From a virus, in IMG/VR virus record IMGVR_UViG_3300042691_053605, positions 64,001 to 128,000 of that record: DNA of 64,000 nucleotides, one strand, 5' to 3'. Within the stretch, counting starts at the first letter, position 1. Each line of letters begins with the position of its first letter. The position numbers were made by a program, and so were the translations under genes. The notes under the pieces are model-generated. The model ran no database searches, was not told the DNA's origin, and worked only from the letters and a program-made list of their open reading frames with translations. Below, one piece after another: positions 1,946 to 61,150 of this stretch.

Positions 1946-4900
1946 TCAGTTTGCTAGGTAAACTTCTAGATAGTTTGGATTGTACTTAGTCTGAGTATTT
2001 CCATTACTATCGGTAATACTTAATTCTAAATCATACAAACCAGTTTCCATAAATGTCCAAAGGAATGACGGATCAATTACAGAACATACTTTAGTGCCAT
2101 CATGGTATAAATTCCATCGATAAGAAGTTTTGCCTGCAATATCCGACGCGTCAGAAGTAAAGAGCACCGAAGCGCCAGCAGGAATTTTCTTTTCCGCTAC
2201 ACCAATAGTGGAATCTTCCCATGTAAACGCAGAATTAATAGAATCTTCATACAAAAGTCTCATTGACTGCCATTGTTTAGTTCTGCTCCAAATTTTTGAA
2301 TTTGTAGGCTGAAACTTAAATGGAAGACTTAAAGGAACATACGCATAAAAAGTAGAACTGCTACCGGAACCGGCAATTTGAGGGCCGTTTGTATACAAAA
2401 TGTTATCATTTACAGAATTTATTGCGGTTCGGCTATTTTCAAAAAAGGTAGTTGTGCTGGTATTTCCAAGATACATTCCCTCATATAGGGTTCCACCTGA
2501 AGTTTGAACTACCACATTTGTCAACTCATATTTATTATAGTCATAAATTAATGCGGGATCTTCTGAGTAATCTGCGCTAAAATATACAGCGGTCTTTCCA
2601 AGTATTCCACGAGTTTTGTCCACTAAAACGCATTCAAAACTTTGGCTTTCTCCATCGCCATCGGTATCGGCAATATAAATTTTAAGATAATCTCCAGATG
2701 ATACTGCGGGAACCGTTGTTGTTAATGGAGTAATGAAACAAAAATCATCATACTCGGTAATTGTAATATCGGCAGACGGGCTGAAAAGTACTTCAACTCC
2801 TGCAGAATTGTATACCTTAACCAGGGCTTTAGGCCTAAACGTTTCAAAATTGTAAGAATTCCAGGAATTTCTTGCGTAAAAGCCGTAGTAGTCCTCGTCA
2901 TTTGTATAGTTTTCAAAAGACGGATTATACGGCTGACCGGATTCCTGTAAGAAAACCTGTGGAGCGCGATAAGGTGCAGCAAATTGTAGTAGACTACTAT
3001 CCAGGCTGCCGCCATAAAAACTATTCCAGTCTTTTACCCAGTTAAAGAAATTTCCTAACGGCAGAGTGTTACCACCATTGCTGTATTTGTTTTGTGTAAT
3101 AAATGCGTAGTTTTGATAGAAACTCATATCAATATTTGGAAGACCTAAATTGGTATATCCTAATAAATCTGTTCCTGGAGTTTTCCCCTGTACTGTAACA
3201 TAATAATTTGCATTAACAAGACCGCTATCACGTACAATTTTTACCAATGAACTTCTGTATGGATAAACCTCAAGACACATATAATTACTTGTTACGCCTG
3301 CTACTTGATCCAGAGTAATACTTTTAACAAATCCGTTTTCTCGTACAATCTGTCCAATGTTTGGCCCAAATTCGCCTATTACGCTGGAAGTATTTGGATC
3401 GTAAATATACCCTCCAAGAGGTAAACTGTCTCTATAACCTACAATATTAGTAATAACTCTGCTATTGGATTCAAGATTTCCGTGTATTACGCATGCCGGG
3501 ATCCATGGTCTAGATCCTACGGCGGCAGAGGTTGCTCCTATCAATATACTTGTAGGCGAACTATTAAAAACGTACCACCCAGGTTGAATGCCTTCTGCTT
3601 GTATTGAGCTTCCTTGTAATAAGCCTGTGAGTGAAGAAGTATCTCCAAACATAATATTGTTTGCAGGATTCCCCCAAGAAAACACACCGTAATATATGTG
3701 TTGGCCGTCTCGCTCTTCTACATTGTAATAAAATTTGGAAAGACCTGGGTTTTCATTTCTTTTTATGGTTCCGGTGGGATCATAAAAATTATTGTTTAAC
3801 AGGTCTGACATATATGTTGTTACGACAGAAGCGTCGGGCGGACACCCTGACAAATCAATTTCATACGGAATATCTTCATTAAATTGAATAGTCTGGCCTG
3901 CATAATTTGAATCATCATCTACCGCGATACGCGTGCTTGCAGGAAGCGTATAGTTCCAGTCAAGCGTGGTCCAGGTTTGTGAACATGAGTTTTCCCAATT
4001 CAGAGTAACTGCTTCATCCCAAGCAGTCTTTGTACCTAAATGTGTTTCTGCGTAGTCTTCATCAAAATCAGTAGCAGATTCTTCAAAAGTAGAGTCACAA
4101 CGATAAAGTTCTTGATCATCATCATTTAATGTTAATATGCTCCAACCGGTATTTCCTAATTGTCCTACATTTTCCACTCTTAAAGAAAAATCGCCTTCTG
4201 AAATTCCATGATCGTAATACCAGCCTTCCCCGGTTGAAGTATCTGCAGGGAATTGAGTTGAACTTTCAAATGCAGGATATATTGGATGCGTATTGAAATC
4301 CATTGTAATCTCTAAGTTACTCAAAGAATTTGCCGAAGAAAATGTTCTTGTTGGAAACACATCATATTTGTATTCAATCCAAGTTTTATATCCATTGCTT
4401 AAATAATCCTGCAAAAGGCCTTCTAGCTCATTCATTTCTTTCCCATCAATAGTTGCGGCTTCAATTGCCACAACACTTGAAGGAGAATCTGACCAAATAT
4501 CCCATGGATGCCCTTGGTTGCTGGTAACTTCGTACATATTAATTGTACGGAAATGTTGTTCGTATACTACACTTGTAGGAACAAATTCCGTAGAATTGGA
4601 AATTTCAATTACGCTTCTTTCACCTGTTGAAGATTTTACAGCTGCAGCATACACATTGCTTCCACAATAGGTTAAATCAGTTATCGGCATACCTGGAGAA
4701 ATTGTTGAAGGCTCATACTGTACAGGCGCAATTGGCGTTTGACCGGAAGAAGTGCTTGAAAGAGGAAATACTTCTATTTCACCGGTATTTTCATAAGAAA
4801 CATATAAAGAATTTGTATTTGCATTATACGCTAATTTTTTAGGAATTGGCCTATTTAATAAAGTAGTATTGATTGTCGCAGTTGACCATGCCAAATTCGG

Positions 4901-58119: not shown

Positions 58120-58378
58120 TTTCTTTTATTTTTTGTGGTACTTTAAATGTGTGAACAGTATTGGTTGTGGCCACCTCTATCAGTGAAGGATTCGGCCATT
58201 GATTAAATCTCACATTTAAGATAGTGATCTTTTTAAGATCCGCGCAATAGGCTTTTACCAAATCCAGTGAAGCCTCCACTTCGTTCTGTTCAATAATTTC
58301 CTTAATTTTTGCCTTTTGAATTTTGTTAAGCATTTCGTACTTTGGTACGATGTCATTAACGGAATACGCTCTTGCCAT
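58112..58378 (-). CDS. Hypothetical protein downstream of sigma factor
   Basis: TAATG-coupled to sigma gene. Confidence 0.55.
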   Translation of the reverse strand: MARAYSVNDIVPKYEMLNKIQKAKIKEIIEQNEVEASLDLVKAYCADLKKITILNVRFNQWPNPSLIEVATTNTVHTFKVPQKIKEND

Positions 58379-58986
58379 TAGAATAGTTTATTTTGATTAG
58401 ATAGTTTCTTTAAGAGTTCTTTGCCTTTTTTCAATTTATACCATACAATATTTATATCACAACCAATTTCCTGAGCAATCTCTTCATGAGAATACCCTTT
58501 GAAATACTTTAGTGAAATCGCTTTTGAAATGTCTTCTGGTAGTTTTGCCACAAGCAGTCTTACAAGTTTTACCACCTGTTCACGATCAATGTTTTGCAAA
58601 ATATCCGTATTGTCCGCTTCAAAAAATTGTGAGGAATCTGCGCCAACTCCGTACGGCTGTGTTTGCACAGTCTTTTTCTTCTTGGGAATGCAGTTAACAT
58701 AGTTATGAAGACACGCAATCATCCAAGTAAAAAACTTGGATTTTTCTGGATCATATTGACGAATCTTTACAAAGGAGTTTCCCATAACCGCCATTACAAT
58801 ATCCTCCAAGTCTTCTTCATCGGCTTGTGGAAGCCTGCGTTTTGCGGCAGTGTACAAGATAGGTTTGTACTTTTGGGCTAATTTGTTATAGGCTTTTTCA
58901 TCGCCATCAATTGCTTCTAAAACCAAGGCCTTATCCTCTTCGTGGGTTAAGTATTTAACGGGCTTATAGCCTTTTCGGATCCTCAT
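58378..58986 (-). CDS. ECF-like sigma-70 family sigma factor
   Basis: Region 2 (GDEKAYNKL...EDIV...FFTWM) and region 4 (KLP...LKYFKGYSHEEIA). Confidence 0.85.
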   Translation of the reverse strand: MRIRKGYKPVKYLTHEEDKALVLEAIDGDEKAYNKLAQKYKPILYTAAKRRLPQADEEDLEDIVMAVMGNSFVKIRQYDPEKSKFFTWMIACLHNYVNCIPKKKKTVQTQPYGVGADSSQFFEADNTDILQNIDREQVVKLVRLLVAKLPEDISKAISLKYFKGYSHEEIAQEIGCDINIVWYKLKKGKELLKKLSNQNKLF

Positions 58987-58992
58987 ACAGTT

Positions 58993-59018
58993 TATATTCC
59001 GGAAGTTGAAAAAGTTTT
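58993..59018 (-). promoter_or_regulatory. ECF-like promoter AAAAC-N14-GAATATA directly upstream of the sigma gene
   Basis: -10 element ends 6 nt before the sigma ATG. Confidence 0.7.
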
Positions 59019-60639
59019 ACTTACGGCTTTCGATAGAATCCCAAGTATCAATAATTGCTTTTGCAAATACCGGTTCACGGCCGGTCCAGCCTGCAAGAAT
59101 TGCTCCGCGGTAAAGATTTTCAGGAAGCACAGAATTGTTGTAACCAGCAACCTGTACAGTAAAGACATTAACTTTTGGATTAACCTTTTTACGATAGTCG
59201 CTCACCAACGCAAGTACATCAATATATGAACCGCGTTTCTTTGGGTGAATGTACTCATTGTATTCATAAGAATTTATACCGTAAAGGTTACCGTGACCGG
59301 CCTGCATATCTGAGTAGATAAAGACGGTATCATAGTGCTTTTTATTTTTAATAGCGTCCTCCCAAAATAGCCAAATGCCGTTCTCAGTTCCGGCTCCTTG
59401 GTTTTGTCCGCGATTAGAAGTTTCCGCTAATTGCGTAAGTAAACCGTTTCTTTTTGAAACTGGCTCAAGAGAAAGACGATCTCCAAATACTCCTACATAT
59501 CCTTCATCTGCCTGTTTGGCCGTAATGAGAGAGGAAAGATTTGCAATTTCTGCAACAGTAACAGTACCGTACTCGGAATTACAGGCGCCCCAAGCAGATC
59601 CACTGTTATCACTTAAGCATGCAACTTTTCCAGCCAACTTTGGCATATTTTCTACTGCGACATCCATACATACCTCGATAGCGTCAAGCACCATTTGTTT
59701 ATTGTGGATATTCGCAGACTTTACTGCTTTATATGCGCTCCAATAACGAAACGGAAACTGTTTGCCTGAAAGAACTGTGTGCTGCAATTGATCCAGAATC
59801 TTTTTAGCGGTTTCACGGTTTTCTACTTCAGTAAAAATACCTCGTAGGTTTCGCAAAAGAGCCATGTGAGGGATTCGGATTTGCTTAATAATTTCCTCCC
59901 AAGTTTTACCAGAAGAACGAAGAGATTCCCAAGTCATTTCAGTACTTTCCACTTTTATTGTACCGGTTTTCATCAATTCGTTAATGTCCGTGCTGTTGGC
60001 ATGTGACAGGCGAACCAGGTCAATTAAAGACTTTCCTTTGTACTTATTCAATTGGTAACGGCTATACTCCGCCAAACGCTCAGCCCATGTACGCTTTAAT
60101 AAAGAAGGCAAGCCGTTTTTAGAACCGTTAACAAACATATAGTAATTCAATTGATTTGTCAAGTCATCTGGACGGCCTGCAATCGCTTTACCAATAGTTT
60201 TCATATAACCAGGATTTGCCTCGTTAAAAGCAACGCGGTTTTCATGCAAGGTTGCTCTTACATAAATAACGGCTGGATTCAAACGCATGTTATAGACTTC
60301 ACGAAGTTCTTTTGCAAAATCCAAGGTTGCCTTAAAATCTGTGCTTAGCGCTGCATCAATTGACGCGGTAAAGATATCAACCGCGGTATCAGAGCCAAAT
60401 GCCTCATTAAAAATATCGTACTCACGAGCAGATAAGTGCTTACTGATAGTTTTTTCCGTGCCTAGTCCATCACGGTAATACTGCGGCTCACCAAAAATGG
60501 AGGAGGCTGCTACAATTCGAAGAGTATCAAGTGGGTTAAGCGTGTAAGAAGTGCCACCCATGAAATTTTGCACCGAGGTTTCTGCTAACTTATTCAGTGT
60601 TGCAGTTTCTTTGTTACCGTACTGTGTTAATCTGCTCAT
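59017..60639 (-). CDS. rsr: Ro60/TROVE-domain RNA-binding protein with vWA domain
   Basis: YQLNKY, IPHMALLRNLR, KQFPFRY, vWA DNSGS, YSDMQ; 540 aa. Confidence 0.92.
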   Translation of the reverse strand: MSRLTQYGNKETATLNKLAETSVQNFMGGTSYTLNPLDTLRIVAASSIFGEPQYYRDGLGTEKTISKHLSAREYDIFNEAFGSDTAVDIFTASIDAALSTDFKATLDFAKELREVYNMRLNPAVIYVRATLHENRVAFNEANPGYMKTIGKAIAGRPDDLTNQLNYYMFVNGSKNGLPSLLKRTWAERLAEYSRYQLNKYKGKSLIDLVRLSHANSTDINELMKTGTIKVESTEMTWESLRSSGKTWEEIIKQIRIPHMALLRNLRGIFTEVENRETAKKILDQLQHTVLSGKQFPFRYWSAYKAVKSANIHNKQMVLDAIEVCMDVAVENMPKLAGKVACLSDNSGSAWGACNSEYGTVTVAEIANLSSLITAKQADEGYVGVFGDRLSLEPVSKRNGLLTQLAETSNRGQNQGAGTENGIWLFWEDAIKNKKHYDTVFIYSDMQAGHGNLYGINSYEYNEYIHPKKRGSYIDVLALVSDYRKKVNPKVNVFTVQVAGYNNSVLPENLYRGAILAGWTGREPVFAKAIIDTWDSIESRK

Positions 60640-60662
60640 ATATGTATGTTTTAATTGTTTCT

Positions 60663-60703
60663 AAAAAAGAAAACCCCGCCAAGTTGTTTACTGGCGGGGT
60701 TTC
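60663..60703 (-). terminator. Strong intrinsic terminator between the ncRNAs and the Ro60 gene
   Basis: GAAACCCCGCCA/TGGCGGGGTTTT stem followed by CTTTTTT. Confidence 0.85.
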
Positions 60704-60742
60704 AGAATAGCAAGGTTTACCAAGTAAACCTTTAATGTCTTT

Positions 60743-60814
60743 CCGAGAATATTGAAGTTGCGTGTGTTTTGTTCGAAATAGTTGAATTAGAAGTAACGCA
60801 TCTTCCCGCTTCGG
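60743..60814 (-). ncRNA. Candidate Y-RNA-like RNA, short copy (core about 72 nt)
   Basis: Ends pair (CCGA/UCGG; GAAG-UGCGU/ACGCA-CUUC); shares GAAGCGG, GUUACUUC, UAAUUCAAC, UAUUCUC with the long copy; next to Ro60 gene. Confidence 0.65.
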
Positions 60815-60827
60815 TCAGTATATAAAG

Positions 60828-61050
60828 TCCTTATTTCCTGAGAATAATCTGATGAGTGATTGACGGTTACGCCGCCGAATCGTCCCCGAATTTCTAGTCA
60901 AGAGGATAAAACCGGGCTACTTGTTGAACGCCTTCTATCGAAGGTGCCGGCTTTCTGTAGCAGTACTTGGCCTGTGTTAGATTCAGCCTCGGCTGAATCC
61001 GTTGAATTATAGTCTTGAAGTAACCCATTACAGCCGCTTCAGGATAAGGA
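60828..61050 (-). ncRNA. Candidate Y-RNA-like RNA, long copy (about 223 nt)
   Basis: Ends pair (UCCUUAU-CCUGA/UCAGG-AUAAGGA; CUG-AUGGGU/ACUCAU-CAG); internal hairpins; same motifs as short copy. Confidence 0.7.
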
Positions 61051-61094
61051 TTAGAAATTTAAGAACGTTTTGTAATTTTTTGAATTACAGATTC

Positions 61095-61120
61095 TATATT
61101 CACCAGGATTAATTAGTTTC
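61095..61120 (-). promoter_or_regulatory. ECF-like promoter GAAAC-N14-GAATATA driving the ncRNA pair
   Basis: Same motif and spacing; no tracked ORF between it and the terminator at 60663-60703. Confidence 0.65.
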
Positions 61121-61150
61121 GGTGGTTGTTAACTTTTTTTTATTTTGCAC

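What the first reader, a model, noticed from the sequence alone, without database searches (positions are those of the whole stretch)
59017..61120. Phage Ro60 with a dedicated transcript of two related, non-tRNA-like Y-RNA candidates
Seen: the 550 bp upstream of the Ro60 gene has no tracked ORF and reads promoter (61095-61120), long RNA (60828-61050), short RNA (60743-60814), terminator. Both RNAs close with the same architecture: terminal helix, internal loop AGCGG opposite UAUUC, second helix, then UUACUUC and UAAUUCAAC. Helices differ compensatorily (GAAG/CUUC versus CUG/CAG; CCGA/UCGG versus CCUGA/UCAGG) while loops are conserved. Known: bacterial Ro60 genes are flanked by Y RNAs whose paired ends bind Ro60 and whose other domain (tRNA-like in YrlA) recruits effectors. 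Neither RNA here shows a D/T-arm module. Inference: a distinct Y-RNA class with a minimal and an elaborated member, forming phage Ro RNPs for RNA surveillance or counter-defence.
Basis: partly seen in the sequence, partly recalled or inferred. Interest (0 to 1): 0.85.

Follow-up and report, generated by a model that had tools for sequence, protein, structure and literature searches.

The report
Phage Ro60 with tRNA-less Y RNAs
Just upstream of its Ro60 gene, this uncultured phage encodes two real, folded small RNAs that carry the Ro60-docking stem of bacterial Y RNAs but no tRNA look-alike; they belong to a large uncatalogued family, so this is a new variant of a known protein-RNA partnership and not a new kind of system.

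Summary
On the minus strand, between a conserved promoter-like site and a strong terminator, lie a long RNA (61050-60828) and a short RNA (60814-60743). Both share one "handle": helix H1 ending in GA, a 5' loop AGCGG, helix H2, the motif UUACUUC, and a 3' loop AUUAUUC or AAUAUUC.

The same handle occurs upstream of related Ro60 (TROVE) genes in more than 100 phage and metagenome loci, always on the gene's strand. All 16 handle base pairs show compensatory changes. In whole phage genomes of 113-497 kb, every strong match clusters around the Ro60 gene.

The handle has the same architecture as the basal stem of Rfam YrlA, and one Bacillus phage G copy joins it to a tRNA-like domain. The window's RNAs have no such domain and match no Rfam family. 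The long RNA instead carries a conserved ~150-nt domain with a covarying pseudoknot.

tRNA-less Y RNAs are already published (YrlB, Yrn2), as is a phage Ro60 that binds two upstream Y-like RNAs (Thermus phage phiLo, 2025). "Distinct class" is therefore overstated. Ro60 binding here is inferred, not shown. This scan has reported the same kind of locus on other DNA before.

The parts
61091..61121 (-). Promoter-like element: -35-like CGAAACT (61121-61115), 16-nt spacer, -10-like TATAGAAT (61098-61091)
   Evidence: The same (T/C)GAAACT-N16-TATAnnAT lies upstream of the long RNA in most related loci. The generic sigma-70 scan did not call it because the -35 is weak. Function is inferred.
61058..61068 (-). 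Conserved leader motif ACGUUCUUAAA between the promoter and the long RNA
   Evidence: ACGTTCTTTAA is kept 10-20 nt before H1 in nearly all related loci, including those where a tRNA-like RNA directly precedes it. Role unknown.
60828..61050 (-). Long Y-like RNA. The handle is H1 61044-61039/60841-60836, 5' loop AGCGG 61038-61034, H2 61033-61024/60856-60849, UUACUUC 61023-61017, 3' loop AUUAUUC 60848-60842, plus an outer extension UCCUUA/UAAGGA. It encloses a ~150-nt domain.
   Evidence: 32 homologues aligned (A3). The model has 35 pairs in 7 helices: 88.7% of cells paired against 74.8% in shuffles, and 28 pairs changed on both sides. No Rfam match. No conserved ORF.
60862..60999 (-). Inner domain of the long RNA: hairpin A 60999-60980; short stem 60972-60970/60951-60949, whose loop GCUAC (60961-60957) pairs with GUAGC (60920-60916) to form a pseudoknot; hairpin 60944-60931; hairpin 60913-60896; hairpin 60876-60862
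   Evidence: RNAalifold and pair counts that include the crossing helix (helices 4-7 are 73-90% paired, and 4-5 pairs in each show changes on both sides). A window-specific 8-bp alternative (60954-60947 with 60915-60908) is not kept in relatives.
60743..60814 (-). Short Y-like RNA: H1 CCGA 60814-60811 / UCGG 60746-60743; 5' loop AGCGG 60810-60806; H2 60805-60797 / 60762-60754; UUACUUC 60796-60790; A-rich apical loop; 3' loop AAUAUUC 60753-60747
   Evidence: The MFE fold gives this structure. The covariance model R1 scores 64.5 bits at 60817-60740, though this sequence was in the training set.
60660..60732 (-). Small hairpin (60732-60712) followed by an intrinsic terminator (stem 60703-60670, then a U run)
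   Evidence: Terminator scan. Weak Rfam matches here are terminator look-alikes only. An equivalent terminator follows the last short RNA in most relatives.
59017..60639 (-). Ro60 (TROVE + vWA) gene, 540 aa
   Evidence: Pfam TROVE E 3.5e-13. Best solved relative is phiLo phage Ro60, 9KOP/9L5Y, E 1.6e-7. AF2 model pLDDT 78; the 13 best Foldseek matches are all Ro60. The MIDAS residues D344, S346 and S348 are invariant in 26 homologues.

Best explanation
The locus encodes two Y RNA-like partner RNAs of the phage's own Ro60 protein. They are transcribed from a conserved promoter-like site, and transcription mostly stops at the terminator just before the Ro60 gene.

Each RNA closes with a YrlA-type docking stem, the "handle". 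This handle is H1 ending in an invariant GA, an asymmetric internal loop (NGCGG opposite AAUAUUC), a 9-bp H2, and the invariant UUACUUC. It is the inferred Ro60-binding site.

What the handle displays differs between the two RNAs. The short RNA carries an A-rich loop of about 35 nt. The long RNA carries a conserved, pseudoknotted domain of about 150 nt in the place where YrlA has its tRNA mimic.

By analogy with Deinococcus, Salmonella and Thermus phage phiLo, the displayed part would tether Ro60 to another factor, such as the host exonuclease PNPase, or would gate access to the Ro60 cavity. That would give the phage two differently specialised Ro60 particles during infection.

Shown here: the RNAs are real, structured, non-coding, strand-specific, and exclusively linked to Ro60 genes. 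Inferred: expression, Ro60 binding, and the identity of any partner.
For: 1. Family and covariation.
- 59 unique short units aligned by sequence alone: 87.2% paired against 66.6% in shuffles; 15 of 16 pairs changed on both sides; sliding the partner by 1-3 columns drops pairing to 41-52%.
- 121 distinct model matches: all 16 pairs compensatory; covariation score 0.647 against at most 0.21 when slid.
- G.U outnumbers A.C 127 to 56 in the paired cells.

2. Link to Ro60.
- All 135 matches at E<=1e-3 lie on the TROVE strand.
- All 63 dereplicated loci that were searched and had >=700 nt upstream carry a match. In 61 it ends within 1 kb upstream; the median gap is 149 nt.
- In whole genomes, matches with E<0.02 in phage G (497 kb) lie only at 405,194-407,290, just upstream of gp540, and at 412,775. 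Arthrobacter phage Atuin (194 kb) has exactly two, flanking its Ro gene. Streptomyces phage pSt2308 has two, directly upstream.
- 24 more matches, all upstream and on the same strand, occur in 44 MAG/genome loci, and also beside a 36%-identical TROVE gene.

3. Handle equals the YrlA stem.
- The Rfam YrlA consensus has the same order of elements.
- The phage G copy at L001:724-878 has this handle around a T-arm/D-arm core that matches YrlA positions 23-86 at 36 bits.
- Chen et al. 2014 (PMC4201824) name GNCGAAN0-1G and YUAY as the conserved YrlA 5' motifs. Here they correspond to YGA-N-GCGG and UUAC.

4. The protein is a Ro60.

5. Precedent: phiLo Ro60 binds two upstream phage-encoded Y-like RNAs and host PNPase in vitro (PMC12135203).
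Against: - There are no expression or binding data for this uncultured phage.
- The handle model finds nothing significant in the phiLo locus, the only phage case with experimental binding, so the link to that experiment is by analogy only.
- The published motif GNCGAAN0-1G is not matched letter for letter: the short RNA reads GACCGAAG and the long RNA CCUGAAG.
- Rfam YrlA does not reach its threshold anywhere in this clade.
- The partner of the displayed domains is unknown. The held half of the genome has no RtcB or RNA ligase gene that would point to an RNA-repair context.
Confidence: 0.8

Rival explanations
1. The elements are mainly cis-acting parts of the Ro60 mRNA leader. Ro60 would bind its own leader, or the leader's fold would control the terminator, to set Ro60 expression. 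They would not be free-standing RNAs.
For: Only about 30 nt lie between the terminator's U run and the Ro60 start codon, and I saw no promoter match there. The same tight spacing is kept in relatives. In L034, L140 and phage G there is no terminator, so the RNAs must be co-transcribed with Ro60.
Against: - In L003 the pair lies 2 kb upstream, with five ORFs in between.
- Atuin has one copy downstream of its Ro gene, and phage G has one 3.7 kb downstream among tRNA genes.
- Copy number ranges from 1 to 7.
- Co-transcription followed by processing is already known for true Y RNAs in M. smegmatis (PMC4201824). Read-through therefore does not argue against free RNAs, and the two roles are not exclusive.
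Confidence: 0.1
2. The RNAs are real but work with a partner other than Ro60, for example a host tRNA- or RNA-processing enzyme, and merely travel with the Ro60 gene.
For: Binding is untested. In several relatives the RNAs sit inside or beside tRNA gene arrays.
Against: Across hosts from Actinobacteria to Bacillota and in freshwater phages, the only constant neighbour is the TROVE gene; the other flanking genes differ. Genome-wide, matches occur almost nowhere else. The handle has the architecture of the YrlA stem that is thought to bind Ro60.
Confidence: 0.07
3. The repeats act at the DNA level, as protein-binding inverted repeats or recombination sites, or they are chance similarity.
For: Both helices are inverted repeats in the DNA.
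Against: The strand bias is complete, with 135 of 135 matches on one strand. G.U pairs exceed A.C pairs. The helix sequences change freely while pairing is kept and the unpaired loops stay invariant. A promoter-like site and a terminator bracket the units.
Confidence: 0.02

Closest known systems
YrlA (Y RNA-like A; Rfam RF02553; Chen et al. 2014, PMC4201824)
   Same: - Encoded close to Ro60 on the same strand.
- The 5' and 3' ends pair.
- H1 ends in (C)GA, followed by a 5-nt 5' loop and a second helix, then YUAY directly after it, with a 7-8-nt loop on the 3' side (one search compared).
- One phage G member joins this handle to a YrlA-like tRNA mimic.
   Different: - The window's RNAs have no T arm, D arm or acceptor-like stem and give no YrlA match even at E<=10.
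- The loop reads AGCGG, not AUGCU.
- H2 is 9 bp, not 7.
- The motif after H2 is the longer, invariant UUACUUC.
YrlB (Salmonella, M. smegmatis) and Yrn2 (D. radiodurans): second, tRNA-less Y RNAs
   Same: They are additional Ro60-associated RNAs encoded beside a first one, and they carry the 5' motif without a full tRNA-like module. The paper says such RNAs escape bioinformatic searches (PMC4201824).
   Different: [quoted passage not shown] Here the short RNA has an A-rich loop of about 35 nt and the long RNA a ~150-nt pseudoknotted domain. No sequence comparison was possible because their sequences are not in the tools.
Thermus phage phiLo Ro60 with Yrl1 and Yrl2 (NAR 2025, PMC12135203; PDB 9KOP, 9L5Y)
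   Same: A phage Ro60 gene with two Y-like RNAs in the upstream non-coding region. Binding was shown by gel shift and cryo-EM, along with a complex with host PNPase. It is the closest solved relative of the window's protein.
   Different: Protein identity is only about 20-26%. The handle model finds no significant match in the phiLo locus. Those RNAs were picked by a CGAA motif and single-sequence folding, without comparative support.
Metazoan Y RNAs (Rfam RF00019)
   Same: The terminal stem formed by the 5' and 3' ends holds the Ro60 site. The 5' strand, GGUCCGA, resembles the (U)CCGA at the end of H1 here, as PMC4201824 notes for YrlA. A variable effector loop sits above the stem.
   Different: Metazoan Y RNAs have a bulged-C helix, not the AGCGG/AAUAUUC internal loop. 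They are made by RNA polymerase III and bind La. There was no match in the Rfam scan.

Membership tests
Bacterial/phage Y RNA (Ro60-associated ncRNA, as used by Chen et al. 2014) | Encoded within a few kb of the Ro60 gene, on the same strand | tested here: met
   Both RNAs lie 100-410 nt upstream of the Ro60 start on the same strand. The same holds in 63 of 63 dereplicated related loci and in whole phage genomes.
Bacterial/phage Y RNA (Ro60-associated ncRNA, as used by Chen et al. 2014) | 5' and 3' ends pair into a stem interrupted by an internal loop | tested here: met
   H1, internal loop and H2, with compensatory changes at all 16 pairs.
Bacterial/phage Y RNA (Ro60-associated ncRNA, as used by Chen et al. 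2014) | 5' motif GNCGAAN0-1G | tested here: inconclusive
   The short RNA reads GACCGAAG and the long RNA CCUGAAG. The family consensus is YGA-N-GCGG with G and A invariant. This resembles the published motif but does not match it exactly.
Bacterial/phage Y RNA (Ro60-associated ncRNA, as used by Chen et al. 2014) | Physically bound by Ro60 in cells or in vitro | not testable with these tools
   Needs co-immunoprecipitation or gel shift.
YrlA (Rfam RF02553) | Scores at or above the family's gathering threshold (69 bits) | tested here: not met
   No match in the window at gathering or at E<=10 in the intergenic region. The best match in the whole 143-kb record is 13.8 bits, elsewhere.
YrlA (Rfam RF02553) | tRNA-like domain (T arm, D arm, acceptor-like stem) | tested here: not met
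   ARAGORN finds nothing in the window. No tRNA-clan or YrlA match in the region. The consensus fold of the long RNA shows no such arms.
YrlA (Rfam RF02553) | Basal stem, 5-nt loop, second helix, YUAY, and a 7-8-nt opposite loop | tested here: met
   The Rfam consensus line compared with the family consensus here.
tRNA-less Y RNAs (YrlB / Yrn2 / phiLo Yrl1-2) | Ro60-type handle without a complete tRNA-like module, encoded beside Ro60 | tested here: met
tRNA-less Y RNAs (YrlB / Yrn2 / phiLo Yrl1-2) | [quoted passage not shown] | tested here: not met
   The short RNA's apical loop is about 35 nt and A-rich. The long RNA has a multi-helix domain.
Ro60 / TROVE protein | TROVE domain; ring of helical repeats plus a vWA domain with a MIDAS DxSxS motif | tested here: met
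   Pfam TROVE. The 13 best Foldseek matches of the model are all Ro60 structures. D344, S346 and S348 are invariant.

The most novel reading that the evidence does not exclude
The conserved, pseudoknotted ~150-nt domain of the long RNA is a new effector module that replaces the tRNA mimic of YrlA. It would recruit phage Ro60 to a partner or substrate that neither tRNA-recognising enzymes nor the minimal short RNA can reach. The phage would then run two functionally different Ro60 particles from one transcript. Separately, the invariant handle motifs GA/GCGG/UUACUUC/AUUC would define a general Ro60-docking code for phage Y RNAs, usable to find such RNAs in any phage.
Probability: 0.3. Interest if true: 0.65.

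Novelty: new variant of a known kind. Interest (0 to 1): 0.5.

Why it matters
Y RNAs are poorly understood, and outside YrlA they have been hard to find by computation. Chen et al. 2014 say so explicitly.

This locus belongs to a family that now has more than 120 distinct members and a well-defined, covarying docking stem. That stem connects the tRNA-mimic YrlA type (one phage G copy) to tRNA-less forms, which shows that the handle is a constant module onto which different "cargo" domains are grafted.

The work yields three practical things:
- A search model for Y RNAs in phage genomes. It already recovers candidates beside Ro60 genes only about 25% identical, in Arthrobacter, Streptomyces, Caulobacter and Rhizobium phages.
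- A set of invariant nucleotides to mutate in binding studies.
- A new structured domain whose partner is unknown.

Two cultured phages carry the family: Bacillus phage G and Arthrobacter phage Atuin. The question of what phage Ro60 particles do during infection is therefore directly testable.

Tried and rejected
- Rfam on the window (gathering) and on the intergenic region (E<=10). Only terminator look-alikes appeared; no Y_RNA, YrlA or tRNA match.
- ARAGORN on the window: none.
- BLASTN of the intergenic region against 50,697 phage records: no match. The family was reached through the protein instead.
- The single-sequence MFE fold of the long RNA pairs GGGUUACUU with AAGUAGCCC. I rejected this in favour of the comparative H2.
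- Coding potential of the 44-aa and 50-aa ORFs inside the long RNA: no conserved ORF in 32 homologues.
Rejected as a family feature.
- Pairing of the conserved leader ACGUUCUUUAA with GAACG inside the long RNA: examined by eye only. It is compatible in some relatives and absent in others, so I did not pursue it.
- Handle model against the phiLo, Vibrio phiKT1024, csAssE-Sib and Desulfovibrio phage loci with filters off: nothing significant. The best was 15.4 bits in Rhizobium phage Y65.
- Exact-pattern scan of IMG/VR: 8 stretches, none among the loci already fetched, although those contain the pattern. One is a true locus beside a 36%-identical TROVE gene; the other seven lack a TROVE match within the fetched stretch and look like chance hits.
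- RtcB and RNA-ligase genes in the held 143-kb record: none.
- Supplementary tables of Chen et al. 2014 and the 2020 Annual Review were not available. I could not check which phage G RNAs were already listed there.
Full report
**What is at the site**

Genes in this part of the window run on the minus strand. The 540-aa ORF at 60639-59017 matches the Pfam TROVE domain at E 3.5e-13. Its closest solved relative by sequence is the Ro60 of Thermus phage phiLo (9KOP/9L5Y, E 1.6e-7). An AlphaFold2 model built on 26 homologues has pLDDT 78 and pTM 0.76. Its 13 best PDB matches are all Ro60 structures: phiLo (TM 0.76 on the target), Deinococcus Rsr, Xenopus and human Ro60. The MIDAS residues D344, S346 and S348 are invariant. 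The gene is a Ro60.

The window is part of a 142,917-bp IMG/VR virus record judged about half complete, and it encodes phage baseplate proteins.

- a long unit at 61050-60828;
- a short unit at 60814-60743;
- a small hairpin and a 13-bp intrinsic terminator at 60703-60670.

Both units read H1, AGCGG, H2, UUACUUC, variable interior, H2', A(U/A)UAUUC, H1'.

**Comparative evidence that the RNAs are real**

The intergenic DNA has no nucleotide match among phage records. The protein does have relatives: Bacillus phage G gp540 at 52% identity, 44 IMG/VR loci, 80 metagenome loci and 44 genome/MAG loci.

A simple motif, GCGG-N-YURCUUC, occurs 178 times on the Ro60 strand of these loci and 5 times on the other strand. 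A pairing search recovered 166 complete units in two size classes, about 63-90 nt and about 190-235 nt. They usually occur in the order long then short, as in the window. The 3' loop ending in UUC was not part of the search rule, yet it is conserved, which shows that the 3' partners were found correctly.

On a sequence-only MAFFT alignment of 59 unique short units:
- The H1+H2 model is 87.2% paired, against 66.6% in shuffles (0 of 500 shuffles reach it).
- 15 of 16 pairs change on both sides.
- Sliding the 3' partner by 1-3 columns drops pairing to 41-52%.

A covariance model built from this alignment (R1) found 135 matches at E<=1e-3 in 100 sources, every one on the Ro60 strand. On that alignment all 16 pairs are compensatory, and the covariation score is 0.647 against at most 0.21 when slid. 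Because the alignment was fitted to the model, this count is secondary. G.U pairs outnumber A.C 127 to 56, as expected for an RNA read from this strand.

No ORF is conserved inside the long unit.

**Link to Ro60**

- All 63 dereplicated loci that were searched and had at least 700 nt upstream carry a match. In 61 it ends within 1 kb of the Ro60 start, with a median gap of 149 nt.
- In whole genomes, phage G (497 kb) has matches with E<0.02 only at 405,194-407,290, immediately upstream of gp540, and one at 412,775.
- Arthrobacter phage Atuin (194 kb) has exactly two, flanking its Ro-like gene.
- Streptomyces phage pSt2308 (113 kb) has two, directly upstream.
- These proteins are only about 25% identical to the window's, and the other neighbouring genes differ.
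- Weaker same-strand matches lie beside the Ro60 genes of Caulobacter phage CcrPW, a 635-kb uncultured phage, crAss001 and Rhizobium phage Y65.

**What the handle is**

The Rfam YrlA consensus reads:
- a 6-bp stem ending CGA;
- a 5-nt loop, AUGCu;
- a 7-bp second helix;
- CUA;
- the tRNA-like core;
- the return strand of the second helix;
- an 8-nt loop;
- the return strand of the first stem.

The family here has the same order: H1 ending YGA, NGCGG, a 9-bp H2, UUAC(UUC), cargo, H2', AAUAUUC, H1'. Chen et al. 2014 (PMC4201824) single out GNCGAAN0-1G and YUAY as the conserved 5' motifs of YrlA and propose the first as the Ro60 contact.

In phage G, the copy at L001:724-878 has the same handle wrapped around a T-arm/D-arm core that matches YrlA positions 23-86 at 36 bits. 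A few relatives (L025, L125, L007) also have a handle-plus-T-arm unit in front of the long RNA. The handle is therefore the YrlA-type docking stem, and the family spans both tRNA-mimic and tRNA-less cargoes.

**What the window's RNAs lack and have instead**

Neither RNA matches tRNA, YrlA or any other Rfam family, and the held part of the genome has no YrlA. YrlA does not reach its threshold in any of 27 related or distant phage Ro60 loci tested.

The short RNA displays only an A-rich loop of about 35 nt, which often contains CGAAAA.

The long RNA carries a conserved domain. A model with seven helices, including a hairpin whose loop (GCUAY) pairs downstream (RUAGC) to form a pseudoknot, is 88.7% paired against 74.8% in shuffles, and 28 of 35 pairs are compensatory. 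As a negative control, an 8-bp helix that looks good in the window alone is no better than shuffles in relatives.

**Transcription**

A promoter-like (T/C)GAAACT-N16-TATAnnAT is conserved upstream of the long RNA; in the window it lies at 61121-61115 and 61098-61091.

A strong terminator follows the last short unit in most relatives, only about 25-35 nt before the Ro60 start. It is missing in L034, L140 and phage G. Ro60 is therefore probably expressed by read-through or co-transcription, as is known for M. smegmatis Y RNAs (PMC4201824). "Dedicated transcript" is only partly right.

**Comparison with what is known**

tRNA-less Y RNAs (YrlB, Yrn2) are described in PMC4201824, which also reports YrlA-like sequences in 22 phages. 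PMC12135203 shows that the Ro60 of Thermus phage phiLo binds two Y-like RNAs encoded upstream of its gene and assembles with host PNPase.

The kind of system is therefore known. What is not in Rfam, or in the papers I could search, is:
- this handle consensus with its invariant AGCGG, UUACUUC and AUUC positions;
- the size of the family;
- the long RNA's inner domain.

The handle model does not match the phiLo locus, so the experimental precedent applies by analogy only.

Earlier notes of this scan report the same kind of locus on other DNA, namely tRNA-less Y RNAs with a shared handle, one of them with a new folded domain. I reached the same reading independently from the tests above.

**Verdict**

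Binding and function are untested.

I rate it a new variant of a known kind, interest 0.5.

Noticed in passing
window 61058-61068 (-); the same motif 10-20 nt before the long RNA in L003, L005, L010-L124: A short motif, ACGUUCUUUAA, is conserved between the promoter-like site and the long RNA. It is kept even in loci where a tRNA-like RNA directly precedes it (L007, L025). It could be a processing site or part of the promoter; it is unexplained.
   Followed up: partly
window 58378-58986 (-): An ECF-type sigma factor gene (Pfam Sigma70_r2, r4_2, ECF; PHROG sigma factor) starts about 30 nt after the Ro60 stop codon. The conserved -35-like TGAAAC upstream of the RNAs in relatives resembles ECF-type -35 boxes; I did not test a link.
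   Followed up: no
L001 (Bacillus phage G, NC_023719) 405,194-407,290 and 412,775-412,839: Phage G carries seven handle-bearing RNAs around gp540. One has a tRNA-like core. Five tRNA-less ones fill the 1-kb gap upstream of the gene, a gap with no annotated feature. One lies among the downstream tRNA genes.
   Followed up: partly
L134 (phage csAssE-Sib, OR575929) 3320-3562: The two genes annotated tRNA-Tyr and tRNA-Lys directly upstream of the "Ro sixty-related protein" gene are overlapped by weak handle-model matches: GGUUACUUC before and AAUAUUUUCA after the tRNA-like part. They may be Y RNAs with tRNA-like cargo and not tRNAs.
   Followed up: no
L007, L025, L125, L153, L130, L131: In many relatives and in distant phages the Ro60 gene sits inside or beside a large tRNA gene array, whereas this window has no tRNA gene at all.
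   Followed up: no
L147 (Crocinitomicaceae MAG contig) 3831-3900; L167 (Bacillus sp. Brlt_9, 743-kb contig) 3351-3775: A 65%-identical Ro60 gene with a handle RNA lies on a contig binned with a freshwater Bacteroidota MAG, which is a possible host hint or a mis-binned phage. A 49%-identical one with three handle RNAs lies in a large Bacillus contig, possibly a prophage.
   Followed up: no
IMG/VR pattern scan: The exact-pattern scan returned only 8 stretches and none of the IMG/VR contigs already fetched, although those contain the pattern. Counts from that scan should not be read as the family's abundance.
   Followed up: no
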